Source: Eledone cirrhosa (lineage: Eukaryota). Taken from it: DNA of 64,000 bases. The DNA lies in NCBI GenBank assembly GCA_964016885.1, contig OZ024764.1:25048001-25112000 (forward strand). The letters are read 5' to 3'. The position numbers and the translations under genes are program-made. The notes under the pieces were generated by a model that had not been told where the DNA came from, ran no database searches, and saw nothing but the letters and a program-made list of their open reading frames with translations. This document shows, piece after piece, positions 13,954 to 63,126 of the stretch (position 1 is the stretch's first letter; each line of letters starts with the position of its first letter).

Positions 13954-14245
13954 TACATATATGTATATATATTTATATATAAACGGAAAAAATAAAACGA
14001 AATTTCATTTCCCACTCTTAGTACGGCTGTTACTTAAATATAAGTATGTATACGTACATACATATATGTATACAGACGTACAGTAGTATGTATATATATA
14101 TACATACATGCACACATATATATATGTACGTATGGATTCACCAAACATTTATTATAATGCTCGGTGTGTTTGTAAACAAACATCCCGAATTAAGCCGTAG
14201 TGTCTAGCAACCACCGCTGCTCGTTTGTTCAACACTGACAAAGGA

Positions 14246-14288
14246 ATGATGTACTAGTTTCAAGCTTATTAGCTATCGTCAGCAACGT
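14246..14288 (-). ncRNA. Minimal type I hammerhead ribozyme
   Basis: Minus strand: ACGTTG-CTGACGA-T AGCT AATA AGCT T-GAAAC TA GTA-CATCAT. Confidence 0.8.
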
Positions 14289-14505
14289 ATACCTTCCTGC
14301 CAGATAGTTGAACGTCCGAAAGTATATACTTTCCTTATGCATATTAACGGCTGGGAAATGAAATTTCGTTTCATTTTTTCCGTTTATGGTTTTCGGTGCA
14401 CCTGGCCGATTAACCCACTCAATATGCAAATTGGGCTACTCAGCCGTTAATATGCATAAGGAAAGTATATACTTTCGGACCTTCAACTATCTGGCAGGAA
14501 GGTAT

Positions 14506-14548
14506 ACGTTGCTGATGATAGCTAATAAACTTGAAACTAGTACAGCGT
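14506..14548 (+). ncRNA. Minimal type I hammerhead ribozyme
   Basis: ACGTTG-CTGATGA(14512)-T AGCT AATA AACT T-GAAAC TA GTA-CAGCGT; stem I ACGTTG/CAGCGT; predicted cleavage after 14542. Confidence 0.8.
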
Positions 14549-14753
14549 TCCTTTGTCAGTGTTGAACAAACGAGCAACAGTGGTTGCTAGACACTACGGA
14601 TTAATACGGGATGTTTGTTTACAAACAGACCGATCATTATAATAAATGTTTGGTGAATCCATACGTACATATATATATATATATGTGTGCATGTATATAT
14701 ATATATACATACTACTGTACGTCTGTATACATATATGTATGTACGTATACATA

Positions 14754-14834
<81 letters not shown>

Positions 14835-31455: not shown

Positions 31456-31640
31456 AATAATTGTTTCTACTTTTGGCACAAGGCCAGCAATTATCCAGTG
31501 CATTACTGGTACTTTATTTTATCGACCCCGTAAGGATGAAAGGCAAAGTTAACCTCGGCAGGATTTGAACTCAAACCATAAAGGGGCGTAACTCTTTGCT
31601 GCAAAGCATGGCGTCAGACCCTCTACCGATACTGCCAACC
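31456..31640 (-). mobile_element. tRNA-derived SINE
   Basis: Same family as 21445-21630. Confidence 0.8.
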
Positions 31641-32050
31641 CTGAAATAATGTAATATATATATATATATATGTATGTGTGTATATATCTATTTATATATT
31701 GAACTATATTTTTTGTAATCACAGAGCTGGACAGAGTCTACTTCCACAACCCAGTAACGTGTAAGTTTTAGTTTTATACACTATCTAACCATTATTCTAT
31801 CTGTTCATTCCCGTCTCTCTCTAACTTCACGATTTCACCGAACTTATATTCATGGAAATTTGGGACTTGACTCCTTCTTCCTCACTTTTCGTTGCTTCAC
31901 CATCTTTGTTTGTTTACACTCTCGTGTCCCCTTTATTTACGTGTTCCAACGACTTTTTTTAGCCGTTGCTCGCACCAACCGGAGGTATATGGTCTTTAAA
32001 GCGATGAAATACCAATGATGGTTGGAAGATCACTGATGAAGGACTAACTT

Positions 32051-35100: not shown

Positions 35101-35679
35101 TACCATAAGCTAGGTTACAATCGGGTTGGTTACTACAAGATAGGTTACCATAGGGTAGGTTAGCATAGTGTAGGTTACTATAGGGTAGGTTACCATAAGT
35201 TAGGTTACTATAGGGTAGGTTATATATGACAGTTTACCATAGGGTAGGTTACCATAGGGTAGGTTACCATAAGGTGGGTTATCATAGGCAGGTTACCATA
35301 TGTTAGGTTACCATAAGTAGGTTACCATAGGCTAGTTTACCATAGGTAGGTTACCAGAGGTTGTCATAGGGTAGCGTACCATACCATAGGTTACCACAGT
35401 GTAGGTTAGCATAGGGTAGGTTACCATACCATATGTTTGTTAAGGTTAGGCTAGGCTGGTTTACTCGGTGAGTTAGAACTCACTTGTGACTGTATTGTTT
35501 TAGAAGAAGAGTCTTAACATTTAGTGCACCACTAAATTTTTTAGCTGATTCCCCTGCAACTGCCTTATTTTGGGGGGGGGTCGTCTTATCAATGCAATAG
35601 GGTCCTAAACCTAAGTTACACCTCAGAATTTTAGGGGCCGACCTATGTACCAGATAGACTTGTACACCGGCATATATGG
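32134..35679. mobile_element. Left-truncated satellite-carrying TIR element (copy B)
   Basis: Starts mid left flank (CAGTGAAACTGCCGGCC = 51009); right TIR CTTGTACACCGGCATATATGG 35659-35679 followed by TA. Confidence 0.7.
32277..35430 (+). repeat. 15-bp satellite array 2 (~3.1 kb)
   Basis: TAGGGTAGGTTAC(CA/TG) monomers with local 45/60-bp periodicity. Confidence 0.95.
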
Positions 35680-37670
35680 TATATATATATATATGCAAAG
35701 AGAGAGAGAGAAAGAGGAAGTGAGAGAGATGCATTAAAACAATAACAGAAGGTCTGACTGGAGAATTTACTTTAGAATTTTAAGAGAAAAGAGGAAGGTT
35801 TCAGACTTCTGGAATTCCTTCACGAAAATGTCCAATTTATCTGTAACAAACTTCAAGAAACGAGACAACCACTTAATAACCTATAGATCAAGTTAGCCCA
35901 CCAGCTAGATAGATTTCATTGTTACCAGAAGACAGAGTGACTGTTATAAACACAAAGTCCCTCCCTAGTGAAGAATGCAACTCCCAACATACCTTAGAAG
36001 ACAACCTGGAAGAAAAGAGTAGAGATCAAAATCAAAAGGTCTTAAAGTCAATTTGGTAAAGATTAAAGTTCTAGTAAGTAGAAAGGAAAACAGGGCCCAG
36101 ATCTCTTCAGGTAAACTGTCCTGCTCAGTGTGCAGAAAGGGAGTAGGTAGAAATTCCATCCTATGTCCCATATAGAAATGATGGGTACACAAAAGATGTA
36201 GTGCGATCTCAGGAACGCTAACAAAGAACGTAGCTTCTACATGTGGCCAATGAACAGGGGCAGTAAATAACAAGAGCTCTCAGGTTACAATCTCCTTCAA
36301 ATGCCCAGAAATCTCTGTAGAGGTGGTAGATAGTTTCTGTTACCTGGGTGACCAAATCAGCAGTGGAGTAGGGTGGTCCAAAAACTCAGTAACCAGAGTG
36401 AGATTAGATTGGCGAAAGTGCAGGGATCTACTACTACTGCTAACTACAAAAGGTTTTTCCCTTAAAATGAAGGGCAGATTGTCTGATGCAGGTATACAAA
36501 CAACAATGTTGCACAGCAGCTAGACCTGGGCACTGTCCGCAGAAGATCTGTAAAGATTGGAAAGAAATTAAGCCTCCATGCTTCAATGGATGTGCTATAG
36601 TAATATATGCAAATGGCAAAACATAAATGTAGTGTGAGAGAAATTATGCATAAGAGGGATTAGTTGCAGTGTGCAGGAGAGGGATTGTTTGGGTTTAGAC
36701 ATGTGATGTGTATGAAGGGTGACAGCTGTATAAAAAGGTGCATAACACACAAAGTTGACAGAAGCCATGGAGTGGGCAGGTCTGGGAAGACTTGGGATGA
36801 GGTAAGGAAAGCTGACTTTGCACAATTACACCTAGCTAAGGCAATGACACAGGATGGTGACCTCTGGCGCTATGCACAATTATAGAGGACCTGCCCTCAT
36901 AAATCCACGAGTTGAGGCATATATCTAGTATGTAACACCTTCCCCACCATCTTCCCTCCCAAACATCTTAATTGATGTTATCATCCCACCCCTATAACAA
37001 CATCCACAATCCACCAGACATTTTCCCTACCAACACCCCACTCAAGTTCCCAAACCTCACCATAAAGAGGTCCCACTGCAATCATGACAACGTGTCCAGT
37101 CCACACTGTACAGTGTTCATGTAGGTGTCCCGACAAAAAGCACCCAGCACACTGTACAAATGTGGTTGGCATTAGAAAGGGCATCCAACCATAAAAACCA
37201 AGCTAAAATCAGTTCCATGTGAGTGAAACATGGTCCTCTGACCTGATCTCCCACAAAGGGACAACCCATCCAACACATTGCCATTCCTTAAGTGCCTTTC
37301 CAGACATCAAGGCCACCTGGCACACACAAGTCAGCCAGAGAATACCTTCCTAATTTAAGGCTTTTAACATCTGAAGCCAGATTTCATCTTCCCCAGCAGT
37401 TTTACCACATTTGAGCTCTTTAACTGCTCTTGTGATCTCAGCCTCTGAGAGATTAGTCACCACTCCCAGATACACCTCATCTACATCCAAAAATGCTGTT
37501 GTGATCGGGTTTAGGAGGTCAGCAACATATTCTCTCCACCTTGTGGGGATGCACCTTTCTGAAGATAGGAGAACTCAGGATTCATACTTGATAGCAGGTG
37601 TGGAGGAAGGCTTCATATTACGAAGCCGGCAGATGATCTGCCAGATCATTTGCATATAAGTGTATATATA

Positions 37671-39679
37671 TCGTGGGAATTTACATAGCCCACATATTAC
37701 ATAGTAAATTTAGTAATCTACAGGGGGGGGGGTATACAGAGATGACGGGCTCTTATTAGTTAATAACTTGAATAACCAAAATCTTGAAAGGCTACGGAAA
37801 AATATTAGAAAATCTTTTAGTGAACTGGGTCTAAAAATAACATACGTATACAATCTTAAAGTAGTAAACTTTCTGGACGTAACTCTTAATTTAAATACCG
37901 GACAGATACGACCCTTCCACAAGGCAAATGAGAACCTTACGTATATTAACTTTAACTCTAACCACCCACTCTCCATGATCAAATCAGTTCCCCGGAGTAT
38001 TTCTCTTAGAATCTCTCGCCTATCGTCTAACTCTGATATTTTTAGTGAACACGCTGAATACTACAATAATGCATTAAGGAATGCTGACCACCGGGATACA
38101 ATAGAATACATCGATAGGAATTTCCATAACACACATAGCTCTACACGAAATCAAGGAATGCGTAACCGGGGGACTAAAATACAAGCACACACACACTACT
38201 ACCAGACATACTAATAATAGAAGATCACCACCAAATAAATCACGTTGTAGAAAGTATATCTGGTACAATCCTATTTTTAATGCCTCGATTAGTACAAAAC
38301 TATCTCTTTCATTCTTTAAGTTAATCAACAAACACTTCCCTAGTTCCCATAAATACAGCAAAATTCTGAACTCTAAAACTATTAGACTATCATACTCCAC
38401 GGCACCAAACCTTGAAGCATACATAAAAAAACTTAACTTAAGGCAATTAAACAACTCTACAAAACAAAACATTTTAGTAACAGATGGGGCGAACGCAATA
38501 TCTGCCTCCCAACCACTAAATGGGAGACGGGTATTGCACAACCCACCTGTACCGCTATCACAACCTATCCATGGTATACCCGCTACCCACAACAAAGAAT
38601 GTAACTGCCATCTACCTGAAATATGTCCATTGAAGAATGAATGCCTAAAGTCCAACATTGTTTACCAATGCACGGTTGAATCGAACGACCAGAAATGGTA
38701 TTATATCGGATCTACCACCACATCGTTTAAATCTCGCTGGTACCGTCATCGATTCTCAATCAAACATCCGAATCACCGTTTTGTGACCACGCTCGCCAAC
38801 AAGACCTGGCAACTCCGTGAACACAACCAACAGTTCACCTTAAAATGGGATATACTTTCAAGCGCAAGTGCATATCGGAGTGGATTGAAGTACTGCAGGT
38901 TATGTAACCTTGAGCTCGTTTACATATTAAAATCCAAAAACAAACTACTTAACGATAGAATTGAACGATCATTATACTGCAACCACAAACTAAAAGCTAA
39001 ATTCTCTCACTATAAAATAACTTAACATTCGAACCCGTAACTATAACACCGCTTTCTAGCTAACAACCTTCTCTTCCCCCCACACTACAAGACAATACAC
39101 TGCTTATCACTATACATGGTAACTCAGTGCAATTCCTAGATTACTACTACAAACCCAAAGTTCACTCACCACACAAACTTTGTCTGTCCCCTCTCTACCT
39201 ATATCTCTCTCTACATCCATTACACACTCTCTCTCTCGCCTTTGGCCTACCTCCCTCTCAACATCTATGAACCTGCCCTCTGGGGCAATAAATAATTCCG
39301 ACCTTAACTATCAACGCATCTCTCCAAAAGTAACCAGTATAATAAAACCCCTACCATAACATTTTGATTAAGATATCTACAAGCCACTCTCTCCTACTTC
39401 TCCAACCCCTGCATATCTTTCTTTCTCTCTCCCTCTTCCCTACTTTTCTCTCTTCCTTTTCTACTCTATCTTCCCCAACAACCCCACTTAAGGGTATTTA
39501 CATTGTACATTTTACCATTCTGCTCTGAGGAAACAGTGGTCACAGCATTGGATATTTGAGTTCTGCAAGTACTTGTGAATTTGCACGTAGCATAACTAGG
39601 CTGCAGTACCACCGTGGAAACACTTGTAATCACACGGAATAAATTACCTTTTTATGATGTCTACCTGTTATTATTCATT

Positions 39680-39682
<3 letters not shown>
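37671..39682 (+). mobile_element. PLE copy B (as 23658-25668)
   Basis: ORFs 37768-38214 and 38534-39025 nearly identical to copy A. Confidence 0.9.
39517..39640 (+). ncRNA. Hammerhead ribozyme copy B
   Basis: Same sequence as 25503-25626; CTGAGGA at 39525. Confidence 0.62.
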
Positions 39683-39713
<31 letters not shown>

Positions 39714-40825
39714 GAATGATCGACCATCGGAATATCGGCCCACGAAATCACGATAAACAATATCCGACATGTGTGGTAGGGAGCTCAATAGTTTGGATAA
39801 ACCAGAGCTATACCTATCGTTAAAATTCCAACACACAGAGATCATGCCTAAAATCACCCGTGCAGCCGAAAAAGAACGACCAGGAAGATTCGGGTCACTC
39901 AAATAAAATATCAATAAATTAATAAATTAAATGAATGTAAAAAAACTCACCCGGACCCGTTAGCAGGATGTTAAATTCTAGCTTTTTGGGTTTCTGCAAT
40001 TCCTTAATCAAATCACTATCATCCCACATAAAAAATATGTATGACTTCTAGAGAGGAGACGAACGAGGAAAAGCTTCTTCAACGAGTTTCCGTTCAAAAA
40101 TACGGAGGGACCCACCGCCAAAAACGCACATGGTATTCAGCAAGGGAGGGAACCCCTATATTAGCGAAAGAATTCGGTGATGTGTAAATTATGTAAAAAT
40201 ACGAAGTATCACATATCGAATCAGAGTGCTCAACAGATGTGTTAAAATAAACAAGAGCTATTCATCAGTCAATAAGATCAACAAAAAATATATATATATA
40301 TATATTTAAAAGAATAGAGATGTAACACACAAGTTATTATATATTTGTAAACGGAATAGAAAATGCTGACAAATTGTTCACAGTTGAAAAATGGTTTAAT
40401 TAGGAATAAAAGAGTATTAGTAATTGTATGGGTTAGTATTCAGTTGTGGTTTTAAGTTTTTAAGTTTTTACCGGTTGCGCATTTCTAAATGCTTTTCAAA
40501 AATAATTTTAAGATAGAGTGTCCGCTCTGATCTGATTAGTTTTGGGAATTCTACCTGTTTTTATGTTAAAAAAGTGGCTCCAGCGCTACTTTCGTGTTGC
40601 AAAAATTCTTGTGGTCAAAACAATTTTGATTGGTCGGTAGAGGTCATGTGAATGTAAAAAATTGATTTTGCGCCAAGACTGTTTTTATGTTAAAAAAGTG
40701 GCTCCAGCGCTACTTGGTGTTTGCAAAATTTCTTGTGGTCAAAACAATTTTGATTGGTCGGTAGAGGTCATGTGAATAAAAAATTGATTTTGCGCCAAGA
40801 CTGAGAAATGACTCTTTCACAACAA

Positions 40826-40893
<68 letters not shown>

Positions 40894-42165
40894 TAGTAGT
40901 AAAGTGCTCGATGTTGTGATAATGGTTAGCAGGGATGTGTGTCAAATGGCTATTAAGTTAAGTGTGTGTGTGTGTGTGTATGTGTGTGAGTGTGTATATA
41001 GCAGAGTAATTCGTGGTAGCGGGGATGGTCAGTAGGAGTGTGTCTGTAAGCAGTGGGGGGTATTTTAGCATGTCAAAAGATATTTTTCAGCTTTTGTCTT
41101 ATACGGAGAAGTGTGTGTGTGTGTGTGTGTGTATAAGTCTCTTTGTATGTTAATGTACGCGTGTGTATGGTTAATGTACGCGTGTATATGGAAAAACTGG
41201 CTCGAAAACCAGGTTTTTCAAGAAGTAATTTGATTGGTTTGTCAATAATTATAATAAATTTCGCGCCAGTTCGCGTTACAATAGTTTTTCAAATAAGAGA
41301 GGGGGGGGGGGGGTTGTCACAGGTTGTTTTTTCATATATGAGTGTTTGAATTTCTTTTTACTTGAAAAAATGAGGCTCACGAAGGCTTTTTTTTGGTTGG
41401 TTATAAATGAAATTTGGCTGTCACGTGAACAAGTTTTCATTACATTTTTGCGCCCTTATTTGGAAAACTATTCTGTAGTCTTTATAGTGAAAGTTATGAC
41501 AATGGAGAGATAGTGGTCAAGGGAAAAGGGATTGGGAGAAATGTTCTGGTTCAGTGAATATGGCCAGCTGTCAGAGTTCAGGTGTCAGAGTTCAGATTTT
41601 CTATTGAGAAACGTGTTTATTTGTGATACGTGTTTATTTGTGATACGTGTTTATTTGTGTGCTTGTGTGTGTGTATATGTGTATTGGAAGATGATTCTAT
41701 TAGTAGAGATGGGGGAGGGAGTTGTGTGTGTGTGTATATGGATGTTATGTGTGTGTGTGTGCGAGTATGTTAGATAGAGAGAATATATATTTTTTGTGTG
41801 TGTGTATATATATATGTGTGTAGGAAAGTGGTTCTATTAGTAGAAATGGGGAGGGTGTTGTAGGTGTGGGGGGTTTTATGTGTGTGTATGGGTGTTATGT
41901 GTGTGGGAGTATGGTTAGCATGTTAAGATGAAGAGAATATATATATATATATATATATTGTGTGTGTGTATGTGTGTGTGGAGGAAAATGATTCCTTTAG
42001 TAGGAATATTTTTGAATGAACATATTTTCCTGACTTTTTCGTGTTTGCTGTTGTATTGCCAGTGCAAACGTATGTTTAAGGTTTATTTAGTTCGGGTTTT
42101 TATTTTCTAAAGTAGGTGTTATGTGTGTGTGTGTATGTCATATTGTGGTGTTGACATAATGTATA

Positions 42166-44141
42166 TTAAACCTTATTTAATGTTGGTCTATATTTTTGAA
42201 TAAACATATTTTCCTTATTTATTCGCATTTGTTCTGTTGTATTGTTAGCGCAAAGGTAAAATGGGAAGACTTGGAATTTGGGTGTCTTATTACTTGCGCA
42301 AATGTCTAGATGTGCACTTAGTGGTATTTGTCTCGTGGTTGGATCTCGTAATTGTTGGCGATGAACTGTCATTCTGTTTCTGAGTGTGAGTTTAGTTTGT
42401 CCTATATAATCTTCATTGCATCCTTTACATTTAATGGCATAAATTAGATTTTTTGATGAGCAAGTGAAGTGATTTTTTACAGTAAAATTTTGTCCTGATT
42501 TAAATGTATACGTGTTGCCTTCAATGAGGTGAGTGCAGGTTCCACAATTAGAGCGACCACATTTTTTGATACTTGGTTGTGGGTTTGTGGTAGGTAATTT
42601 GGCATTGGTGAGTAATGTTTTCAGTGATTTTGGTTGTCTTTTGCTTTTGATTATTTTGTGTGTTTCAAGGGCTTTTTTCATTCTTGGGTTTTGTTTTAGT
42701 AGTGGGATGTTATTGTGAATAGTGTTGTAAGCTTCCGCATTTCTTGGGTTGTGTGTTGAGATATATGATAGAATATTGGACGTACCTTGAATTTGTTTCT
42801 GTTTCCGTAATTCATCAATGCCTATTGCTTTAGCCCTTTCTATTCCATTATTTATTAGTAATAGTGGGTACTCTCTCTCAAGTAGAATTTCCTTTAATTC
42901 TTGAAGTCTTTTATTTCGCGTTTCATAATTGGAGACAATTGTGAAAATTCTTCTTGCTAGGTTAAAAGGAATGTTCGTCTTCGTGTGCTTTGGATGGTTG
43001 GAGGTGAATAGCAGATATTGTTTGGAATCTGTTGGTTTGTAGTGTATGTCAGTTTCGATATTTGTGTCTTTTTTTGTGATTAAGATGTCCAGAAATGGGA
43101 GTTGATCTTGGCTGTATTCCATTGTGAATTGGATGTGGTTATTGATGCCGTTTATTAAGTTTTTGAAATCCTTCAGTTGGTCGAGTGTGTGGGACCAAAG
43201 AATGAGGCAATCATCCAAGTAGCGTTTCCAATTCTCTGATAAATATTTGTGAAAGTTCAATCCGTATTTTGATTTGGACTGTTCATATATCTGGACTTCT
43301 AAGTATGCCATGACTAAGTTGGCATAAGTTGGAGCGGCTTTTGTGCCCATCGCAGTCCCCGATATTTGCTTGTAAGTATTGCCATCGAAATCAAAAAAGT
43401 TGTTCTGTAGGATGAATTTTAATCCCTCGGTGATGAAGCTTTTTTCTATTCTGTCAGGTATCTCATTGGGATATTTCTCTAGCCAGAATCCTATTGCTTC
43501 TAGTCCGTATTGGTGTGGGATCGTTGTGTAGAGATTCACTACATCGAAAGACACAATAATAGTGTCGTTGTTGACATGTTTGGGGAGGTGGTTTAAGAGG
43601 TCCAGATCGTCTCTTACAAGGCTTGGTATGTGTTTCAGTATTGGTTTCAGTAGTATGTCTATAAAGTTGCTCAATCTGTGTGTTTCACATTGTGGGCCCG
43701 CTACAATTGGTCTTAATTTAAGATCTGTGGGGTATTGTGTGTTCACGCAGGCTGAGGTGGATTGTTTACAGGCATCGTTGATTATTTTACATTTGTGGAT
43801 CTTCGGAAGTCCGTAAAGGTTGCTGGTTTTGTATTCAAAATTTGTTAAATAATCGCGTTCCTTTTTAGTTAGGTCTTCCTGGTATCGATAAATCAGTGTG
43901 TTTAATTTGGTCATTATTTTTGATTGCTGGTAGTTTTTTACTCTTTCATAGTAATTAGCATTTTGTAAGAGAGAGAACATAGAATTTTTATATTTTTCAG
44001 CCTCCATAATGACAACAGTACTTCCCTTGTCCGCTTCCTTAATTACAATGTCCGGATTGTTTTTTAGTTCATGGATAATCTCCTATTCCCTTCGACTTGT
44101 GTTGGGTTTGGGTTTAGGTTGCGGTAGTTCTACAGAAGTGT
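42166..44141 (-). pseudogene. PLE RT + GIY-YIG copy B with N-terminal nonsense codon and deletion
   Basis: 613-aa open segment 42166-44007; TGG>TAG at 44083-44085; ~146-bp deletion at ~44130. Confidence 0.9.
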
Positions 44142-44142
44142 G

Positions 44143-44175
<33 letters not shown>

Positions 44176-44176
44176 T

Positions 44177-44291
<115 letters not shown>

Positions 44292-44512
44292 TTTTTTTGT
44301 GTTGCACCATAGAGCATGTGTGTTCACGTATGTCATTGTGTTTATATGAGGGTAGAGATGTGTGCTGATGTAGGTATGTATGTTGAAGTGTGTATGTTGT
44401 GGGTTCGTCTTAGGGAGCTGTGTTTAGACGGGGTCCGTATTTGTTAATGAAGTAAGATTCCTTGCTGATGTATACATATATATATGTGTGTATATATATA
44501 TGTGTGTATATA

Positions 44513-44578
<66 letters not shown>

Positions 44579-45304
44579 GAAAAGTAAATGTTACGGGCGA
44601 AAGAGAGGAATATCCATCGTCAGTTGTCTGCTAGGAATCATAGGTATTTCTTCGTGTTAGGGGCAAGATACTTCAGCCTAGGGTGAACTATAACTAAAAT
44701 AAGTTATTGGGATAAAAAAAGAGAGGAAAGAGAGAAAAACATGTAAACAGACACGAAGGGTGAAGCAACGTAAAGAGAGGAAAAATAGGAAATATATCAA
44801 GTCAACAACTCATTTCGAACGTAAGAATGATGAGTTTGACGACAGAGAAAACGACACGTCTTCACTGTTGCAGTGTTAGCGAGAGAAGAGGCTGCTTACA
44901 GTGGTGGACAAGGGAGGAAGTGAACTAGTGGAGAGAGGGAGTGAGTGAAAGTAAGAGGAAGCGAGAAAGAGATAGTTATAGTGGCAGGGTAGCCGAGATA
45001 AGGTGACTAGCAGAGGGGGTGAGCGAAAGTAAGAGGGAGAAGGAGAGAGAAGGGGGAGAGAGATGATAGGAAGAAGGGGAGAGAAAAGTGACGGGTCACA
45101 GCGAAGAAGGAAGCTTATATGAATAAAATGGTGAGCTGTGTGGTTGCAAATAAGTATAATGAAATAAAAATCTATCTATATAACATAGACATCTAAGGGC
45201 CTGGAGATTAGGTCACAAATTTGATCCCTCTTACAATCTGGAGATATGGTCAATATGGGCCTTAAAACCTTGAGTCCCTTTTCTTCTGTGTATGAACAGA
45301 AATA

Positions 45305-45490
45305 AATAATTGTTTCTACTTTTGGCACAAGGCCAGCAATTATCCAGTGCATTACTGGTACTTTATTTTATCGACCCCGTAAGGATGAAAGGCAAAGTTA
45401 ACCTCGGCGGGATTTCAACTCAAACCATAAAGGGGCGTAACTCTTTGCTGCAAAGCATGGCGTCAGACCCTCTACCGATACTGCCAACCC
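45305..45490 (-). mobile_element. tRNA-derived SINE
   Basis: Duplicate of 31456-31640. Confidence 0.8.
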
Positions 45491-45699
45491 TGAAATAATG
45501 TAATATATATCTATATATATATGTATGTGTGTATGTATCTATTTATATATTTAACTATATTTTTTGTAATCACAGAGCTGGCCAGAGTCCACTTCTACAA
45601 CCCAGTAACGTGTAAGTTTTAGTTTTATATACTATCTAACCATTATTCTCTCTGTTCATTCCCGTCTCTCTCTATCTCTCTCTCTATATATTTATATCT

Positions 45700-46360
45700 A
45701 TATACATACATGCACACACATATATATATGAACGTATGGATTCACCGAACATTTATTATAATGCTCGGTGTGTTTGTAAACAAACATCCCCAATTATGCC
45801 TTACAGTGTCTCACTGTGTCATTTCCCACTCTTAGTACGTCTGTATACATATATGTATGTACGTATACATACTTATATTTAAGTAACAGCCGTACTAAGA
45901 GTGAGAAATGAAATTTTGTTTCATTTTTCCGTTTATCCTTTTCGGTACCCCGGCCGATTAACTCACTCGATATGAAAATTAGGCTGCTCAGCTGTTAATA
46001 TGCATAAGCAGAGTATATACTTTCAGACGTTCAACCATCTGGCAGGAAGGTATACGTTGCTGACGATATCTAATAAGCTTGAAACTAGTACATCATTCCT
46101 TTGTCAGTGTTGAACAAATGAGCAACGATGGTTGGTAAACACTGTACGGCTTAATTCGGGATGTTTGTTTACAAATACACCGAGCATTATAATAAATGTT
46201 CGGTAAATCCATTCGTACATATATATATATGTGTGCATGTATGTATATATATATACATACTACTGTACGTCTGTATACATATATGTATGTACGTATACAT
46301 ACTTATATTTAAGTAACAGCCGTACTAAGAGTGAGAAATGAAATTTCGTTTCATTTTTTC
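45700..46360 (+). mobile_element. Non-coding HHR unit, more than one monomer (430-bp period), with 5' inverted pieces
   Basis: GTGAGAAATG at 45901 and 46331; ~95-bp terminal redundancy; inverted fragments at 45700-45839. Confidence 0.8.
46041..46105 (+). ncRNA. Minimal type I hammerhead ribozyme
   Basis: GGCAGGAAGG...ACGTTG-CTGACGA(46060)-T ATCT AATA AGCT T-GAAA(46081)C TA GTA-CATCATTCCTTTGTC; distal stem I AGGAA/TTCCT. Confidence 0.75.
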
Positions 46361-46366
46361 TGCTTA

Positions 46367-47244
46367 TCTATATATAGAAAACTATGGTTGTCTGTCTGTC
46401 TATCGATTTTTGGCACACATCTCCTCTTAGAATCTCTCACGGAATTGCACCGAAATTGCTATACTTGTACATTGAGCCCTAGCGAAGACATCGGAAAAAA
46501 AAATATTTCAAATTGACCCACCCTATGTGACGAAATCGAATATAATGTATCGATTTTTGAGCGTAAGTGATCAGTTATTTCCCTTTGTTCTGTTTACATT
46601 GAGCGTCTTACGTAAAAAATTACGCTGGCTTTAACAGTTGTCGAGCCAGCAAAATATTGACCTGCAAAATTCATCAGTTCGAACACTAAGCTTCCGTTTT
46701 GCTTCATTTCCATTTAAAAGCATTTTAAAACAATATTTTTACTTGAAAACAAGTCTATTTAAAGACTACGTAAAACAAGCAAATATTTCGTCGTTAGGCG
46801 TGCAGACAGACAGTCGTGCAGACAGACAGTCGTGCAGAGAGGTGATATAGGCGTGCAGACAGACAGTCGTGCAGAGAGGTGATATAGGCGTGCAGACAGA
46901 CAGTCGTGCAGAGAGGTGATATAGGCGTGCAGACAGACATAACTGATAATTTGGTTACGTTAATGTTTTTCTCTGCGTTGCAGTGTTTACATTTTCGATC
47001 TTTGTTAATAAATAACCAGTGCAGTTTCTATCCCCAGCATCCTCTTTTGTTATAACATTCGGGTTATCGTTATGTTTTCTTAACTTCATAAGGCATATTG
47101 TTGGTTGAGGGAATATTAATCAAAAACACCACATGCAAGTCTGCACAGTAGATACTACAGTTTTTAAGCCAAGAAAGAAACTTAACATTGTAACTTTAAC
47201 ACAGCTACTGAGCGACCCCGAGCAACGCCGGGCTTTACTGCTAG
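46367..47244 (+). mobile_element. Non-autonomous Helitron
   Basis: 5' TCTATATATAGAAAA...GTCTGTCTGTC; 3' hairpin CCCGAGCAACGCCGGG followed by CTAG; inserted between A and T with no TSD. Confidence 0.8.
46796..46939 (+). repeat. 37-bp minisatellite inside the Helitron
   Basis: AGGCGTGCAGACAGACAGTCGTGCAGAGAGGTGATAT, about 3.5 copies. Confidence 0.9.
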
Positions 47245-50896: not shown

Positions 50897-53800
50897 TCAT
50901 ATATGCCAGTGAACAAGGTGACATTTGGAGCCTAAAAATATCTCTCCAAAACCAGGGGTCGACTTGTCTGCTAAATATAGTATGTTAACCTTTACCACTG
51001 AGGGGTAACAGTGAAACTGCCGGCCAAACACTTGTTGTACACCACTTACCATAACTCTAGCAACCCACCACATTTATTTCTACTGGATCTCATATTTGTT
51101 AAGTATAACGTAGAGATTATAGTAATATCAATGTCTTACTGTAGCTTATAGTGTAGGTTACCATAGGGTAGGTTACTGTAGGGTAGGATACCGTAGGGTA
51201 GGTTACTGTAGGGTAGGTTACCATAGGGTAGGTTACTGTAGGGTAGGATACCGGAGGGTAGGTTACCATAGGGTAGGTTACCATAGGGTAGGTTACTGTA
51301 GGGTATGTTACTGTAGGGTAGGTTACTGTAGGGTAGGGTACCATAGGGTAGGATACCGTAGGGTAGGTTACCATAGGGTAGGTTAGCATAGGGTAGGTTA
51401 CTGTAGGGTAGGATACCGGAGTGTAGGTTACCATAGGGTAGGTTACCATAGGGTAGGTTACTGTAGGGTATGTTACTGTAGGGTAGGTTACTGTAGGGTA
51501 GGTTACCATAGGGTAGGTTACTGTAGGGTAGGATACCGTAGGCTAGGTTACCATAGGGTAGGTTAGCATAGGGTAGGTTACTGTAGGGTATGTTACTGTA
51601 GGGTATGTTACTGTAGGGTAGGGTAACATAGGGTAGGATACCGTAGGGTAGGTTACCATAGGGTAGGTTAGCATAGGGTAGGTTACTGTAGGGTATGTTA
51701 CTGTAGGGTAGGTTACTGTAGGGTAGGGTACCATAGGGTAGGATACCGTAGGGTAGGTTACCATAAGGTAGGTTAGCATAGGGTAGGTTACTGTAGGGTA
51801 GGATACCGGAGTGTAGGTTACCATAGGGTAGGTTACCATAGGGTAGGTTACTGTAGGGTATGTTACTGTAGGGTAGGTTACTGTAGGGTAGGTTACCATA
51901 AGGTAGGTTACTGTAGGGTAGGATACCGTAGTGTAGGTTACCATAGGGTAGGTTAGCATAGGGTAGGTTACTGTAGGGTATGTTACTGTAGGGTATGTTA
52001 CTGTAGGGTAGGGTACCATAGGGTAGGATACCGTAGGGTAGGTTACCATAGGGTAGGTTAGCATAGGGTAGGTTACTGTAGGGTATGTTACTGTAGGGTA
52101 GGTTACTGTAGGGTAGGGTACCATAGGGTAGGATACCGTAGGGTAGGTTACCATAGGGTAGGTTAGCATAGGGTAGGTTACTGTAGGGTATGTTACTGTA
52201 GGGTAGGTTACTGTAGGGTAGGGTACCATAGGGTAGGATACCGTAGGGTAGGTTACCATAGGGTAGGTTAGCATAGGGTAGGTTACTGTAGGGTATGTTA
52301 CTGTAGGGTAGGTTACTGTAGGGTAGGGTACCATAGGGTAGGATACCGTAGGGTAGGTTACCATAGGGTAGGTTAGCATAGGGTAGGTTACTGTAGGGTA
52401 TGTTACTGTAGGGTAGGTTACTGTAGGGTAGGGTACCATAGGGTAGGATACCGTAGGGTAGGTTACCATAGGGTAGGTTAGCATAGGGTAGGTTACTGTA
52501 GGGTATGTTACTGTAGGGTAGGTTACTGTAGGGTAGGGTACCATAGGGTAGGATACCGTAGGGTAGGTTACCATAGGGTAGGTTAGCATAGGGTAGGTTA
52601 CTGTAGGGTATGTTACTGTAGGGTAGGTTACTGTAGGGTAGGGTACCATAGGGTAGGATACCGTAGGGTAGGTTACTGTAGGGTAGGGTACCGTAGGGTA
52701 GGTTACCATAGGGTAGGTTACCATAGTGTAGGTTACTGTAGGGTAGGTTACTGTAGGGTAGGTTACTGTAGGGTAGGTTACCATAGGGTAGGTTACTGGA
52801 GGCTAGGATACCGTAGGGTAGGTTACTGTAGGGTAGGTTACCATAGGGTAGGTTACTGTAGGGTATGTTACCATAGGGTAGGTTACTATAGAGGAGGTTA
52901 CCATACGGTAGGTTACCTTAGGGTAGGTTACCATAACGTAGGTAACTATAGGGTAGGTTACCATAGTGTAGGTTAATGTAGGGTAGGTTACCATAGGATA
53001 GGGTACCATAGGGTAGGTTACAATAGGGTATGGTACCATAGGGTAGGTTACCATAGGGTAGGTTACCATAGGTTAGGTTACCTTAGGTTAGGTTACAATA
53101 GGGTAGGTTATCATAGGTTAGTATACTATAGGATAGGTTACCATAAGGTAGGTTAGCATAGGCTTGGTTACCATAGGGGAGGATACTATTGGTTGTTACC
53201 TTAGGGTAGGTTACCATAGGGGAGGTTACTATAAGTTGTTACCATAGGGTAGGTTACCTAGGGTAGGTTACTATATGGTAGGTTACTGTAGGGTAGATTA
53301 CCATAAGGTAGGTTACTATAGGGTAAGTTACCATAGGGTTGATTACCTTAAGGTAGGTTACCATAGGGTAGGTTACCATAGGGTAGGTTACCTTAGGGTA
53401 GGTTACTATAGAGTAGAGTACCATAGGGTAGGTTACCATAGGGTAGGTTACCATAAGGGAGATTATTATAGGCTAGGTTACCATAAGTTAGGTTACTATA
53501 GGGTAGGTTATATATGACAGTTTACCATAGGGTAGGTTACCATAGGGTAGGTTACCATAAGGTGGGTTATCATAGGTAGGTTACCATATGTTATGTTACC
53601 ATAAGTAGGTTACCATAGGCTAGTTTACTAGAGGTAGGTTACCAGATGTTGTCATAGGGTAGGTTACCATACCATAGGTTACCACAGGGTAGGTTACCAT
53701 AGGGTAGGTTACCATACCATATGTTTGTTAAGGTTAGGCTAGCCTGGTTTACTCGGTGAGTTAGAACTCACTTGTGACTGTAGTGTTTTAGAAGAAGGGT

Positions 53801-53964: not shown

Positions 53965-55942
53965 TATATATATATATGCAAAGAGAGAGAGAGAAAGAGG
54001 AAGTGAGAGAGATGCATTAAAACAATAACAGAAGGTCTGACTGGAGAATTTACTTTAGAATTTTAAGAGAAAAGAGGAAGGTTTCAGACTTCTGGAATTC
54101 CTTCACGAAAATGTCCAATTTATCTGTAACAAACTTCAAAAAACGAGACAACCACTTAATAACCTATAGATCAAGTGGGCCCACCAGCTAGATAGATTTA
54201 ATTGTTACCAGAAGACAGAGTGACTGTTATAAACACAAAGTCCGTCCCTAGTGAAGAATGCACCTCCCAACATACCTTAGAAGACAACCTGGAAGAAAAG
54301 AGTAGAGATCAAAATCAAAAGGTCTTAAAGTCAATTTGGTAAAGACTAAAGTTCTAGTAAGTAGAAAGGAAAACAGGGCCCAGATCTCTTCAGGTAAACT
54401 GTCCTGCTCAGTGTGCAGAAAGGGAGTAGGTAGAAATTCCATCCTATGTCCCATATAGAAATGATGGGTACACAAAAGATGTAGTGCGATCTCAGGAACG
54501 CTAACAAAGAAAGTAGCTTCTACATGGGGCCAGTGAACAGGGGCAGTAAATAACAAGAGCTCTCAGGTTACAATCTCCTTCAAATGCCCAGAAATCTCTG
54601 TAGAGGTGGTAGATAGTTTCTGTTACCTGGGTGACCAAATCAGCAGTGGAGTAGGGTGGTCCAAAAACTCAGTAACCAGAGTGAGATTAGATTGGCGAAA
54701 GTGCAGGGATCTACTACTACTGCTAACTACAAAAGGTTTTTTCCCTCAAAATGAAGGGCAGATTGTCTGATGCAGGTATACAAACAACAATGTTGCACAG
54801 CAGCTAGACCTGGGCACTGTCCGCAGAAGATCTGTAAAGCTTGGAAAGAAATTAAGCCTCCATGCTTCAATGGATGTGCTATAGTAATATATGCAAATGG
54901 CAAAACATAAATGTAGTGTGAGAGAAATTATGCATAAGAGGGATTAGTTGCAGTGTGCAGGAGAGGGATTGTTATGGTTTAGACATGTAATGTGTATGAA
55001 GGGTGACAGCTGTATAAAAAGGTGCATAACACACAAAGTTGACAGAAGCCATGGAGTGGGCAGGTCTGGGAAGACTTGGGATGAGGTAAGGAAAGCTGAC
55101 TTTGCACAATTACACCTAGCTAAGGCAATGACACAGGATGGTGACCTCTGGCGCTATGCAGAATTATAGAGGACCTGCCCTCATAAATCCACGAGTTGAG
55201 GCATATATCTAGTATGTAACACCTTCCCCACCATCTTCCCTCCCAAACATCTTAATTGATGTTATCATCCCACCCCTATAACAACATCCACAATCCACCA
55301 GACATTTTCCCTACCAAGTTCCCAAACTTCACCATAAAGAGGTCCCACTGCAATCATGACAACGTGTCCAGTCCACACTGTACAGTGTTCATGTAGGTGT
55401 CCCGACAAAAAGCACCCAGCACACTGTACAAATGTGGTTGGCATTAGAAAGGGCATCCAACCATAAAAACCAAGCTAAAATCAGTTCCATGTGAGTGAAA
55501 CATGGTCCTCTGACCTGATCTCCCACAAAGGGACAACCCATCCAACACATTGCCATTCCTTAAGTGCCTTTCCAGACATCAAGGCCACCTGGCACACACA
55601 AGTCAGCCAGAGAATACCTTCCTAATTTAAGGCTTTTAACATCTGAAGCCAGATTTCATCTTCCCCAGCAGTTTTACCACATTTGAGCTCTTTAACTGCT
55701 CTTGTGATCTCAGCCTCTGAGAGATTAGTCACCACTCCCAGATACACCTCATCTACATCCAAAAATGCTGTTGTGATCGGGTTTAGGAGGTCAGCAACAT
55801 ATTCTCTCCACCTTGTGGGGATGCACCTTTCTGAAGATAGGAGGACCCAGGATTCATACTTGATAGCAGGTGTGGAGGAAGGCTTCATATTACGAAGCCG
55901 GCAGATGATCTGCCAGATCATTTGCATATAAGTGTATATATA

Positions 55943-58062
<2,120 letters not shown>

Positions 58063-59181
58063 GAATGATCGACCATCGGAATATTGGCCCACGAAATCAC
58101 GATAAACAATATCCGACATGTGTGGTAGGGGGCTCAATAGTTTGGATAAACCAGAGCTATACCTATCGTTAAAATTCCAACACACAGAGATCATGCCTAA
58201 AATCACCCGTGCAGCCGAAAAAGAACGACCAGGAAGATTCGGGTCACTCAAATAAAATATCAATAAATTAATAAATTAAATGAATGTAAAAAAACTCACC
58301 CGGACCCGCTAGCAGGATGTTAAATTCTAGCTTTTTGGGTTTCTGCAATTCCTTAATCAAATCACTATCAGCCCACATAAAAAATATGTATGACTTCTAG
58401 AGAGGAGACGAACGAGGAAAAGCTTCTTCAACGAGTTTCCGTTCAAAAATACGGAGGGATCCACCGCCAAAAACGCACATGGTATTCAGCAAGAGAGGGA
58501 ACCCCTATATTAGCGAAAGAATTCGGTGATGTGTAAATTATGTAAAAATACGAAGTATCACATATCGAATCAGAGTGCTTAACAGATGTGTTAAAATAAA
58601 CAAGAGCTATTCATCAGTCAATAAGATCAACAAAAAAGATATATATATATATATTTAAAAGAATAGAGATGTAACACACAAGTTATTATATATTTGTAAA
58701 CGGAATAGAAAATGCTGACAAATTGTTCACAGTTGAAAAATGGTTTAATTAGGAATAAAAGAGTATTAGTAATTGTATGGGTTAGTATTCAGTTGTGGTT
58801 TTAAGTTTTTAAGTTTTTACCGGTTGCGCATTTCTAAATGCTTTTCAAAAATAATTTTGAGATAGAGTGTCCGTGTTGTTTGCTCTGATCTGATTAGTTT
58901 TGGGAATTCTACCTGTTTTTATGTTAAAAAAGTGGCTCCAGCGCTACTTTCGTGTTGCAAAAATTCTTGTGGTCAAAACAATTTTGATTGGTCGGTAGAG
59001 ATCATGTGAATAAAAAATTGATTTTGCGCCAAGACTGTTTTTATGTTAAAAAAGTGGCTCCAGCGCTACTTGGTGTTTGCAAAATTTCTTGTGGTCAAAA
59101 CAATTTTGATTGGTCGGTAGAGGTCATGTGAATAAAAAATTGATTTTGCGCCAAGACTGAGAAATGACTCTTTCACAACAA

Positions 59182-59247
<66 letters not shown>

Positions 59248-59315
59248 TAGTAGTAAAGTGCTCGATGTTGTGATAATGGTTAGCAGGGATGTGTGTCAAA
59301 TGGCTATTAAGTTAA

Positions 59316-59350
<35 letters not shown>

Positions 59351-59724
59351 TGAGTGTGTATATAGCAGAGTAATTCGTGGTAGCGGGGATGGTCAGTAGG
59401 AATGTGTCTGTAAGCAGTGGGGGGTATTTTAGCATGTCAAAAGATATTTTTCAGCTTTTGTCTTATACGGAGAAGTGTGTGTGTGTGTGTGTGTATAAGT
59501 CTCTTTGTATGTTAATGTACGCGTGTGTATGTGTGTGTGTGTGTGTATATATATGTGTGTGTGTGTGAGAATGTGTGTGTGTGTGTGGGTGGACCAGTAT
59601 TTTATTCCCCCTGGTAAAGTGGTGTTCATTATTCGATATTTTCAGTAAAATCGGTTCTCTTAATAGAACATCAAAATTCTTAACAATAAAAGGTGTGAAA
59701 TGATATTCACTATATATATATATT

Positions 59725-59755
<31 letters not shown>

Positions 59756-60945
59756 GTGAGGTTTTTTTTACAAAATGAAAAATAACCGAGGTGTCCTACA
59801 CGAGTGGAAGTATAAAGAAAAAAGGATGAAATCGAGAATGCAACTGAAGTCTTATTTTTTTTAAAAATATATATATTTATTTGGTTCCTTTACCGGTTTC
59901 GCAGTTCTTCTGCTTTTCAAAAGGTGAGTTGAGATGGAGGGTCTGTGGTTTTTCTCACATCTGGTTGGTCTCTAAATGTTACTTGTTTTATATGGAAAAA
60001 CTGGCTCGAAAACCAGGTTTTTCGAGAAGTAATTTGATTGGTTTGTCAATAATTATAATAAATTTCGCGCCAGTTCGCGTTACAATAGTTCTTCAAATAA
60101 GAGAGGGGGGGGGGGGTTGTCACAGGTTGTTTTTTCATATATGAGTGTTTGAATTTCTTTTTACTTGAAAAAATGAGGCTCACGAAGGCTTTTTTTTGGT
60201 TGGTTATAAATGAAATTTGGCTGTCACGTGAACAAGTTTTCATTACATTTTTGCGCCCTTATTTGGAAAACTATTCTGTAGTCTTTATAGTGAAAGTTAT
60301 GACAATGGAGAGATAGTGGTCAAGGGAAAAGGGATTGGGAAAAATGTTCTGGTTCAGTGAATATGGCCAGCTGTCAGAGTTCAGGTGTCAGAGTTCAGAT
60401 TTTCTATTGAGACTGAAGATACGTGTTTATTTGTGTGCTTGTGTGTGTGTATATGTGTATTGGAAGATGATTCTATTAGTAGAGATGGGGGAGGGAGTTG
60501 TGTGTGTGTGTATATGGGTGTTATGTGTGTGTGTGTGCGAGTATGTTAGATAGAGAGAATATATATTTTTTGTGTGTGTGTATATATATATGTGTGTAGG
60601 AAAGTGGTTCTATTAGTAGAAATGGGGAGGGTGTTGTAGGTGTGGGGGTTTTTATGTGTGTGTATGGGTGTTATGTGTGTGGGAGTATGGTTAGCATGTT
60701 AAGATGAAGAGAATATATATATATATATATATATATATTGTGTGTGTGTATGTGTGTGTGGAGGAAAATGATTCCTTTAGTAGGAATATTTTTGAATGAA
60801 CATATTTTCCTGACTTTTTCGTGTTTGCTGTTGTATTGCCAGTGAAAACGTATGTTTAAGGTTTATTTAGTTCGGGTTTTTATTTTCTAAAGTAGGTGTT
60901 ATGTGTGTGTGTGTATGTCATATTGTGGTGTTGACATAATGTATA

Positions 60946-63067
60946 TTAAACCTTATTTAATGTTGGTCTATATTTTTGAATAAACATATTTTCCTTATTT
61001 ATTCGCATTTGTTCTGTTGTATTGTTAGCGCAAAGGTAAAATGGGAAGACTTGGAATTTGGGTGTCTTATTACTTGCGCAAATGTCTAGATGTGCACTTA
61101 GTGGTATTTGTCTCGTGGTTGGATCTCGTAATTGTTGGCGATGAACTGTCATTCTGTTTCTGAGTGTGAGTTTAGTTTGTCCTATATAATCTTCATTGCA
61201 TCCTTTACATTTAATGGCATAAATTAGATTTTTTGATGAGCAAGTGAAGTGATTTTTTACAGTAAAATTTTGTCCTGATTTAAATGTATACGTGTTGCCT
61301 TCAATGAGGTGAGTGCAGGTTCCACAATTAGAGCGACCACATTTTTTGATACTTGGTTGTGGGTTTGTGGTAGGTAATTTGGCATTGGTGAGTAATGTTT
61401 TCAGTGATTTTGGTTGTCTTTTGCTTTTGATTATTTTGTGTGTTTCAAGGGCTTTTTTCATTCTTGGGTTTTGTTTTAGTAGTGGGATGTTATTGTGAAT
61501 AGTGTTGTAAGCTTCCGCATTTCTTGGGTTGTGTGTTGAGATATATGATAGAATATTGGACGTACCTTGAATTTGTTTCTGTTTCCGTAATTCATCAATG
61601 CCTATTGCTTTAGCCCTTTCTATTCCATTATTTATTAGTAATAGTGGGTACTCTCTCTCAAGTAGAATTTCCTTTAATTCTTGAAGTCTTTTATTTCGCG
61701 TTTCATAATTGGAGACAATTGTGCAAATTCTTCTTGCTAGGTTAAAAGGAATGTTCGTCTTCGTGTGCTTTGGATGGTTGGAGGTGAATAGCAGATATTG
61801 TTTGGAATCTGTTGGTTTGTAGTGTATGTCAGTTTCGATATTTGTGTCTTTTTTTGTGATTAAGATGTCCAGAAATGGGAGTTGATCTTGGCTGTATTCC
61901 ATTGTGAATTGGATGTGGTTATTGATGCCGTTTATTAAGTTTTTGAAATCCTTCAGTTGGTCGAGTGTGTGGGACCAAAGAATGAGGCAATCATCCAAGT
62001 AGCGTTTCCAATTCTCTGATAAATATTTGTGAAAGTTCAATCCGTATTTTGATTTAGACTGTTCATATATCTGGACTTCTAAGTATGCCATGACTAAGTT
62101 GGCATAAGTTGGAGCGGCTTTTGTGCCCATCGCAGTCCCCGATATTTGCTTGTAAGTATTGCCATCGAAATCAAAAAAGTTGTTCTGTAGGATGAATTTT
62201 AATCCCTCGGTGATGAAGCTTTTTTCTATTCTGTCAGGTATCTCATTGGGATATTTCTCTAGCCAGAATCCTATTGCTTCTAGTCCGTATTGGTGTGGGA
62301 TCGTTGTGTAGAGATTCACTACATCGAAAGACACAATAATAGTGTCGTTGTTGACATGTTTGGGGAGGTGGTTTAAGAGGTCCAGATCGTCTCTTACAAG
62401 GCTTGGTATGTGTTTCAGTATTGGTTTCAGTAGTATGTCTATAAAGTTGCTCAATCTGTGTGTTTCACATTGTGGGCCCGCTACAATTGGTCTTAATTTA
62501 AGATCTGTGGGGTATTGTGTGTTCACGCAGGCTGAGGTGGATTGTTTACAGGCATCGTTGATTATTTTACATTTGTGGATCTTCGGAAGTCCGTAAAGGT
62601 TGCTGGTTTTGTATTCAAAATTTGTTAAATAATCGCGTTCCTTTTTAGTTAGGTCTTCCTGGTATCGATAAATCAGTGTGTTTAATTTGGTCATTATTTT
62701 TGATTGCTGGTAGTTTTTTACTCTTTCATAGTAATTAGCATTTTGTAAGAGAGAGAACATAGAATTTTTATATTTTTCAGCCTCCATAATGACAACAGTA
62801 CTTCCCTTGTCCGCTTCCTTAATTACAATGTCCGGATTGTTTTTTAGTTCATGGATAATCTCCCATTCCCTTCGACTTGTGTTGGGTTTGGGTTTAGGTT
62901 GCGGTAGTTCATGGTATGGGAAGGTAGCTATGTGGTCACAAAATTTGTCCAGAACTCTGTTTCTACCTTTTGTTGGGTTGTAGCTGCTTTTATTCCGTAC
63001 AATTGATTCGTCGTTATTCTCCTTGTCAAAGAATTCCTCTGTGAGACGTAATTTTCTACAGAAGTGT

Positions 63068-63068
<1 letters not shown>
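60946..63068 (-). CDS. PLE ORF (RT + GIY-YIG) copy C, 5'-truncated at (TA)n
   Basis: 613-aa track ORF plus upstream sequence matching copy A. Confidence 0.92.
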
Positions 63069-63125
<57 letters not shown>

Positions 63126-63126
63126 T

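What the first reader, a model, noticed from the sequence alone, without database searches (positions are those of the whole stretch)
45836..46360. 430-nt ribozyme-bearing unit with circular permutation: candidate retrozyme-like circular RNA
Seen: an ORF-less unit with one minimal type I hammerhead (46060-46090) and an exact 430-bp period (GTGAGAAATG at 45901 and 46331). In the separate copy at 13981-14760 the two arms start and end at different points of the same unit, and the minus arm runs into the sequence that begins the plus arm. Known: metazoan non-LTR retrozymes are 170-400 nt HHR repeats that give circular RNAs and are proposed to use PLE enzymes. The short palindromic stem III (ACTAGT) is typical of HHRs that cleave as dimers. 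Inference: this is a family copied from a circular or tandem RNA template by the neighbouring PLE machinery, possibly not yet described in this lineage.
Basis: partly seen in the sequence, partly recalled or inferred. Interest (0 to 1): 0.85.

Follow-up and report, generated by a model that had tools for sequence, protein, structure and literature searches.

The report
Ribozyme repeat carrying Penelope insertion signature
This is one copy of a very abundant protein-free repeat with a hammerhead ribozyme motif (a retrozyme, a known kind of element) whose copies end at two fixed points and sit back to back just as Penelope retrotransposons do, so it is likely copied by Penelope enzymes, possibly from a circular RNA that was not observed here.

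Summary
45835-46368 is 1.24 turns of a 430-bp ORF-less unit with a type I hammerhead, plus an inverted arm. It belongs to a family with 6,181 exact core matches (35,668 with relatives, including a 470-bp sister family), in dispersed copies and in arrays of up to 50 units. It is a new member of the known non-LTR retrozymes, probably in an octopod.

Corrections: the hammerhead is canonical, not minimal, and its stems covary between families. The permutation is not free: 5' ends are scattered, but 114 of 136 3' ends fall on two sites about 58 nt apart, mostly joined to (AT)n. That is the Penelope 'tail'. Head-to-head double insertions use one site per arm: 28 of 31, then 10 of 10, in this family, 19 of 19 in the sister family, and 13 of 13 in the autonomous Neptune element of this window. 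Copies run through the ribozyme cut site (1 stop in 87), so the template has uncut or re-ligated junctions. Circle versus tandem RNA is unresolved, no RNA data were found, and the partner PLE was not identified. The flagged copy has one weakened ribozyme and is probably a dead end.

The parts
45835..46368 (+). Main arm: 1.24 turns of the unit, 5' end u365, 3' end at outer site S2 (u36-37), followed by a TA run
45901..46330 (+). One full 430-bp unit; no ORF over 69 aa; circular fold z -5.1 against 40 shuffles (part of this from AT-rich palindromes)
46048..46100 (+). Canonical type I hammerhead motif (core 46060-46090, predicted cut after 46090, 2-bp palindromic helix III); this copy has a broken helix II pair at 46069 and two helix I mismatches
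46306..46366 (+). Tail: stretch between inner 3'-end site S1 (u406-411) and outer site S2 (u36), holding a strong hairpin (about 46333-46359); inferred RT start sites
45689..45809 (-). Inverted head-to-head arm (u239 to u359); its outer end is lost, since paralogous copies L002 and L003 extend to u384 and abut an RTE-like 3' end
45810..45840 (-). Junction between the arms, containing a short inverted piece of the unit (about u421-u11)
13979..14353 (-). Second locus, minus arm u89 to u36 (ends at S2 in (AT)n), hammerhead core 14282-14252
14352..14763 (+). Second locus, plus arm u2 to u411 (ends at S1 in (AT)n), hammerhead core 14512-14542
59748..63126 (-). Context, not part of the retrozyme: autonomous Neptune-type PLE (RT + GIY-YIG ORF 60946-63126; own U3-A8 hammerhead at 59920; two 3'-end sites near 59811 and 59748) that obeys the same one-tail rule

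Best explanation
This is a dispersed, two-armed copy of a non-coding hammerhead repeat family (non-LTR retrozyme) whose copies end at two fixed sites joined to (AT)n and are likely inserted by a Penelope-like (PLE) reverse transcriptase/endonuclease working in trans. Shown: the family, its arrays, the conserved hammerhead fold, the two 3'-end sites, the head-to-head arms with one site each, and read-through of the cut site. Inferred steps: (1) loci with two or more ribozymes are transcribed by read-through and self-cleave as dimers; (2) unit-length RNA is likely circularised by a host ligase; (3) a PLE protein, probably a dimer, binds the tail hairpin and cuts both strands of an (AT)n tract; (4) each DNA end primes at one of the two sites flanking the tail; (5) both cDNAs run back for a random length, often past one unit, and their ends join head to head; (6) long arrays grow later by local duplication. 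I put the main template as a re-ligated circle at about 0.5 and an uncut tandem transcript at about 0.35; a minority of insertions need a mixed tandem template. The flagged copy has a single, weakened ribozyme and could not release a unit-length RNA.
For: Family size and arrays. Hammerhead pairing 92% with 6 of 15 pairs changed on both sides, 0 of 500 shuffles, slid controls 28-46%. 3' ends: S1 55, S2 59, other 22 of 136 arms; (AT)4 in the flank of 93 of 114 S1/S2 ends. Head-to-head 41, tail-to-tail 0; S1+S2 in 28 of 31 pairs with both ends on a site, p 5e-6; 10 of 10 in new loci, about 7 independent, and 19 of 19 in the sister family; 13 of 13 in the Neptune element. Stops at the cut site 1 of 87, about 1.6 expected. 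Arms and repeats of one young insertion differ 0.7% against 6.1% between loci. Two adjacent internal RT start sites, cutting of both strands and a predicted dimer are reported for a PLE in vitro (PMC11167929). Tail at one end of inverted PLE insertions and (TA)n bias: PMC3846280, PMC8557442.
Against: No cleavage, transcript or circle was observed. The partner PLE was not found: no tail similarity to the three window PLEs or to the 3' flanks of 30 GIY-YIG loci. Rfam does not recognise this family's ribozyme. The covariation comes from few independent lineages (16 chosen rows, essentially two families), so the shuffle count overstates it. Subfamily switches inside single arms (L058, L069, L093) and in-register shared variants (L231, L058, L128, L097) cannot come from one monomer circle without template switching or conversion. 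In the PAc study unprocessed RNA was the dominant substrate, and 8 of 9 Xenopus dimers did not cleave in vitro. The priming sites here carry 2-5 nt of TA microhomology to the target, so alignment blurs the ends by a few bases.
Confidence: 0.8

Rival explanations
1. Same element and same PLE enzyme, but the template is an uncleaved linear tandem transcript from an array; circles are absent or a by-product.
For: Mixed-subfamily arms in 3 of 45 within-arm pairs; both arms of L231 share two variants in the 3'-most unit that upstream units lack; arrays of 10-50 units exist; ribozyme cleavage was dispensable for PAc insertion.
Against: Overall, in-register and out-of-register copies differ equally (0.75 v 0.81% and 3.64 v 3.85%). 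The ribozyme fold is kept through compensatory changes although no copy ends at the cut, which cleavage followed by ligation would explain. Retrozymes of coral, mussel and axolotl are mostly circular.
Confidence: 0.35
2. The unit is the pseudo-LTR of an ordinary autonomous PLE, and these are its 5'-truncated fragments.
For: It has every PLE end signature; the Xenopus retrozymes are related to pLTRs.
Against: None of the 86 loci has PLE coding sequence contiguous with an arm's 5' end, no common 5' extension appeared among 54 solo arms, and arms read back into the previous unit instead. The ribozyme is canonical, while this genome's PLEs carry other variants. An origin from a pLTR remains possible.
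Confidence: 0.07
3. A satellite or inverted-repeat DNA element spread by DNA-level recombination or as a MITE, with an incidental ribozyme-like motif.
For: Long arrays with 2-unit and 4-unit higher-order periods did expand at the DNA level (L065 lag-2 0.5% v lag-1 3.4%; the inverted arm differs from both alternating units).
Against: Polarity (fixed 3' ends, random 5' ends), strictly head-to-head arms of unequal length, (AT)n targeting and a covarying hammerhead are not expected of a MITE or satellite.
Confidence: 0.04
4. A SINE-like element moved by a LINE (for example RTE) with L1-type twin priming on one linear RNA.
For: 5' inversions and microsatellite tails occur with LINEs (recalled); RTE-like elements lie beside both window loci.
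Against: Twin priming predicts that one arm starts where the other ends; observed 51% within 60 nt against 48% by chance, p 0.42. Two internal 3'-end sites used once each are shared with the Neptune element. No Pol III box A or B on the ribozyme strand.
Confidence: 0.05

Closest known systems
Metazoan non-LTR retrozymes (Cervera and de la Pena 2020, PMC7229834; results and discussion read)
   Same: Non-coding, low-GC, structured tandem unit with a canonical type I hammerhead and weak palindromic helix III; U-U at the base of helix II as in axolotl HHR_Amex2; thousands of copies; co-occurs with PLEs.
   Different: Unit 430-470 nt against 170-400 there; circles and cleavage not shown here; the paper's main text has no mention of inverted arms, tails, truncation, microsatellites or cephalopods.
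Retrozymes as non-autonomous PLE derivatives (Li, Clavereau, Pollet, bioRxiv 10.64898/2026.07.22.740005; parts 1-3 of 5 read, abstract to discussion)
   Same: Monomers, dimers and arrays; PLE link; later local array growth; size within their 51-972 bp range.
   Different: Their evidence is co-occurrence and pLTR homology in Xenopus, with no mollusc sampled and no end mapping. Here no pLTR homologue was found, but the insertion signature itself is PLE-type. Their supplements were not seen.
EN+ Penelope-like elements, Neptune clade (PMC3846280 and PMC8557442, passages; PMC11167929, main text)
   Same: Partial tandems, inverted 5'-truncated arm, optional tail at one end, two RT start sites, (TA)n targets.
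   Different: No ORF; tail 58-74 nt against 30-40; canonical rather than minimal hammerhead.
Non-autonomous Chlamys PLEs such as MRC1 (PMC8557442, passage)
   Same: ORF-less PLE dependants forming multicopy head-to-tail insertions.
   Different: Those share 3' sequence with an autonomous family and mostly lack hammerheads.

Membership tests
Non-LTR retrozyme | Non-coding unit of a few hundred bp, GC below 50% | tested here: met
   430 bp, GC 0.35, longest stop-free frame 69 aa
Non-LTR retrozyme | Type I hammerhead in each repeat | tested here: met
   Core motif and covarying helices I and II; sister family hits Rfam HH9 below gathering; this family has no Rfam hit
Non-LTR retrozyme | Occurs as tandem repeats with two or more ribozymes | tested here: met
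   Family: arrays to 50 units; 18 of 84 position-picked arms span two or more cut sites. The flagged locus itself has one ribozyme.
Non-LTR retrozyme | No LTR, PBS or PPT layout; no own RT | tested here: met
   Pure unit repeats with variable 5' ends and no contiguous ORF in 86 loci; a PBS was not searched for separately
Non-LTR retrozyme | Self-cleavage as monomer or dimer | not testable with these tools
   Needs an in vitro assay
Non-LTR retrozyme | Accumulates as circular RNA | tested here: inconclusive
   No RNA holder listed; the four runs laid were contigs of unrecorded kind
Non-LTR retrozyme | Target-site duplication when present | not tested
   Targets are mostly (AT)n, where a duplication cannot be read
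PLE-mobilised element | Two adjacent 3'-end sites (tail) | tested here: met
   114 of 136 arms; 55 of 57 in the sister family
PLE-mobilised element | Partial tandem plus inverted 5'-truncated arm, tail at one end | tested here: met
   41 head-to-head, 0 tail-to-tail; 28 of 31, 10 of 10, 19 of 19 with one tail
PLE-mobilised element | Sequence shared with the pLTR of an autonomous partner | tested here: inconclusive
   None among three window PLEs, 16 Neptune loci and 30 GIY-YIG loci; the genome has over 10,000 GIY-YIG candidates
Autonomous PLE (ordinary pLTR) | RT plus GIY-YIG ORF inside the repeat unit | tested here: not met
Minimal PLE hammerhead (min-HHR) | Helix II 7-8 bp, helix I 4-5 bp with poorly defined loop 1 (PMC4209133) | tested here: not met
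   Helix II 4 bp, helix I 6 bp with internal loop and distal stem

The most novel reading that the evidence does not exclude
The near-strict rule that the two arms of one insertion use different start sites, and come from the same RNA haplotype, records an asymmetric PLE dimer that primes both ends of a cut (AT)n tract on either side of one RNA hairpin and sends two RTs round the same small circle. The retrozyme would then be a 430-nt minimal substrate that explains the long-standing tandem/inverted/tail architecture of all Penelope elements, and its end signature is direct genomic evidence for which enzyme moves animal retrozymes.
Probability: 0.35. Interest if true: 0.65.

Novelty: new member of a known kind. 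Interest (0 to 1): 0.42.

Why it matters
The element class is known. Two things are of use. First, a 2020 review states that metazoan retrozyme repeats show no conserved motif pointing to their autonomous partner (PMC7761336, passage). Here thousands of copies carry the PLE tail signature, which adds mechanistic support to the proposed PLE link. Second, 'tail at one end only' has been noted qualitatively for PLEs. Counting it (70 of 73 two-site pairs over two retrozyme families and one Neptune element, a few of them duplicates) turns it into a rule that a reconstituted PLE system can test with a small RNA. It also marks about 36,000 hammerhead motifs in what appears to be an octopod genome; my searches found no such report.

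Tried and rejected
Rfam on the window and on 14200-14620: no hammerhead hit; only AT-repeat miRNA noise and weak snoRNA matches. MFE folding of the ribozyme alone does not give the active fold and is no better than shuffles (z -1.5 to +1.1), as expected for a dimer-type motif, so it is no support. Sequencing runs: no RNA holder listed; the four runs laid were contigs and say nothing on expression. Linear twin-priming test: not significant. Nearest-neighbour distance as a test of template heterogeneity: dropped as biased. In-register test for circle versus tandem: no overall difference. ABAB array L065 as the product of a dimeric circle: rejected, since the alternating units and the inverted arm differ by private changes. 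Partner search: unit against Neptune loci, tail alignments, hammerhead-variant patterns, GIY-YIG flanks; none found, and the one strong hit (L347) is a separate insertion. Earlier scan findings: nothing returned. Rows dropped before counts: duplicate views of one locus (L002, L003, L008, L035, L041, L042, L051, L053-55, L057, L059), the empty L064, arms cut by a locus edge, and the AT-rich part of the unit (about u306-387) in distance tests. No structure or complex prediction was run.

Full report
Observation. With u1 = 45901, the hammerhead core is u160-190 and the predicted cut follows u190. The unit has no frame over 69 aa even as a circle and folds better than shuffles (z -5.1), partly through AT-rich palindromes.

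Family. A 35-letter core pattern has 6,181 exact matches in the 3.0-Gb genome, control 0. A broader pattern has 35,668, control 0, and includes a 470-bp sister family with 4,087 exact matches. Copies are dispersed (mostly 0.5-2 units) or in arrays of 10-50 units. The nearest named relative of the neighbouring PLE protein is from Octopus bimaculoides at 75% identity, so the host is probably an octopod; this is inference.

Ribozyme. In 16 chosen copies from both families, 92% of cells pair in helices I-III, 6 of 15 pairs change on both sides, and slid controls give 28-46%. The rows represent few independent lineages. Helix I has 6 bp plus an internal loop and distal stem, helix II 4 bp with a 6-nt loop, helix III 2 bp in a palindrome. 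By the definitions in PMC4209133 (part 1 of 4 read) this is the canonical dimer-type form, not the minimal PLE form. Rfam misses this family but hits the sister family with Hammerhead_HH9, E 9e-7, below gathering. The flagged copy has a helix II change present in 1 of 121 arms and the minor helix I variant, and only one ribozyme, so it is probably inert.

Copy ends. Among 136 arms in 86 loci, 3' ends fall at S1 (u401-412) 55 times, S2 (u24-37) 59 times and elsewhere 22 times; none lies within 10 nt of the cut; 5' ends are near uniform (p 0.11). In the 84 arms picked by position rather than similarity the counts are 34, 38 and 12, and 46 arms exceed one unit. (AT)4 follows 93 of 114 S1/S2 ends. 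All 41 adjacent opposite arms are head to head. Of the 31 pairs with both ends on a site, 28 are S1+S2 (p 5e-6); the other 10 pairs have at least one end off-site. New loci gave 10 of 10 (about 7 independent; 6 more pairs had an off-site end) and the sister family 19 of 19 (2 off-site; 55 of 57 3' ends on two sites 74 nt apart). The Neptune element of this window has two 3' ends about 62 nt apart in (AT)n. Among 22 loci examined, the 13 with a head-to-head partner all had one long and one short end.

Template. In 67 arms picked by a motif downstream of the cut, 87 cut sites were reached and 1 arm stopped there, about 1.6 expected. Cleaved linear RNA is therefore not the usual template. In the young sister family, repeats within an arm differ 0.70% and the two arms 0.66%, against 6.1% between loci, so both arms come from one haplotype. 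In this family, lineage-marking differences are 0.5% within insertions against 1.8% between loci, but 3 of 45 within-arm pairs switch subfamily, and 4 of 58 two-armed loci show variants shared in register. The overall in-register test is null. A circle or a homogeneous tandem transcript fits most insertions, and a mixed tandem template is needed for some. Array L065 grew after insertion by duplicating a two-unit block. Linear twin priming is not supported (p 0.42). No RNA data were available.

Partner. No PLE coding sequence is contiguous with any arm's 5' end. The tail is clearly homologous between the two retrozyme families (0 of 300 shuffles) but not to the three window PLEs (p 0.11-0.99), nor to 3' flanks of 30 GIY-YIG loci from five sequence clusters. 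The resident Neptune shares the signature and has many intact young copies, so it is a candidate only.

Mechanism. Shown: repeat structure, conserved hammerhead fold, two-site 3' ends, one-tail rule, read-through of the cut. From the literature: retrozymes are cleaved, circularised by RtcB in vitro, and proposed to use PLE enzymes (PMC7229834, parts 2-4 of 6 read). A PLE protein cuts both strands of AT-rich DNA, starts at two adjacent internal RNA sites that define the tail, is predicted dimeric, and does not need ribozyme cleavage (PMC11167929, parts 1-2 of 4). Inferred: a PLE protein primes the two ends of an (AT)n break at S1 and S2 of one RNA with closed junctions, and the two cDNAs join head to head.

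Comparison and novelty. It is a member of the non-LTR retrozymes on every feature testable here; cleavage and circles are untested. The PLE origin of retrozymes is argued in a 2026 preprint, and a tail on one of the inverted arms is described for PLEs (passages). Term searches in the two retrozyme papers found no mention of tails, none of inverted arms beyond one reference title, and none of cephalopods. Library searches (listings only unless cited) showed no retrozyme report for octopus, and an O. vulgaris repeat annotation has no occurrence of ribozyme or retrozyme in its main text (PMC13282606). Subscription papers, repeat databases and supplements were not seen.

Verdict. Real, correctly spotted, and of a known kind. 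The added value is the PLE end signature and the one-tail rule. Interest 0.42.

Noticed in passing
L163:5681-7143 and L213-L248: Sister retrozyme family, 470-bp unit, 4,087 exact core matches, younger (0.7% within insertions), same two-site tail and inverted layout; one array of about 31 units near G000:C1:5.74 Mb.
   Followed up: yes
window 59891-59920 (-): The Neptune element carries a hammerhead with the U3-A8 core variant and palindromic helix III; another Neptune cluster (L323 group) has a similar one.
   Followed up: partly
window about 3950-3992 (-) and 10727-10775 (+): Two more hammerhead-like motifs: one 3' of the PLE at 4197-7900 (core with one mismatch), one with a long helix II just upstream of the RTE-like ORF at 10854.
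   Followed up: no
window 21698-31826, 35713-45677, 53996-64000: A block of about 10 kb with two opposed PLE remnants recurs three times at 97-99%; the flagged retrozyme locus is also duplicated about 27 and 54 kb downstream (L003, L002).
   Followed up: partly
window 16980-18000, 32260-35450, 51140-53740: 15-bp-period GC-rich minisatellite arrays with long open frames giving weak Lamprin matches below cut-off; probably low-complexity matches.
   Followed up: no
L061-L063 (G000:C1:51.772-51.794 Mb); L065; L052: Arrays show higher-order periods (4 units in part of the 50-unit array, 2 units in L065 and L052), a clear case of a retro-insertion turning into a satellite while keeping its insertion ends.
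   Followed up: partly
L323, about 105 nt before the 3' (AT)n: An 11-nt stretch in this Neptune family's 3' end matches the retrozyme tail hairpin's 3' side; not significant by BLAST, a possible lead to the partner.
   Followed up: no
window 18101-18485 and 1810-2187: A further inverted-repeat element (95% palindrome) of an unrelated family; not examined.
   Followed up: no
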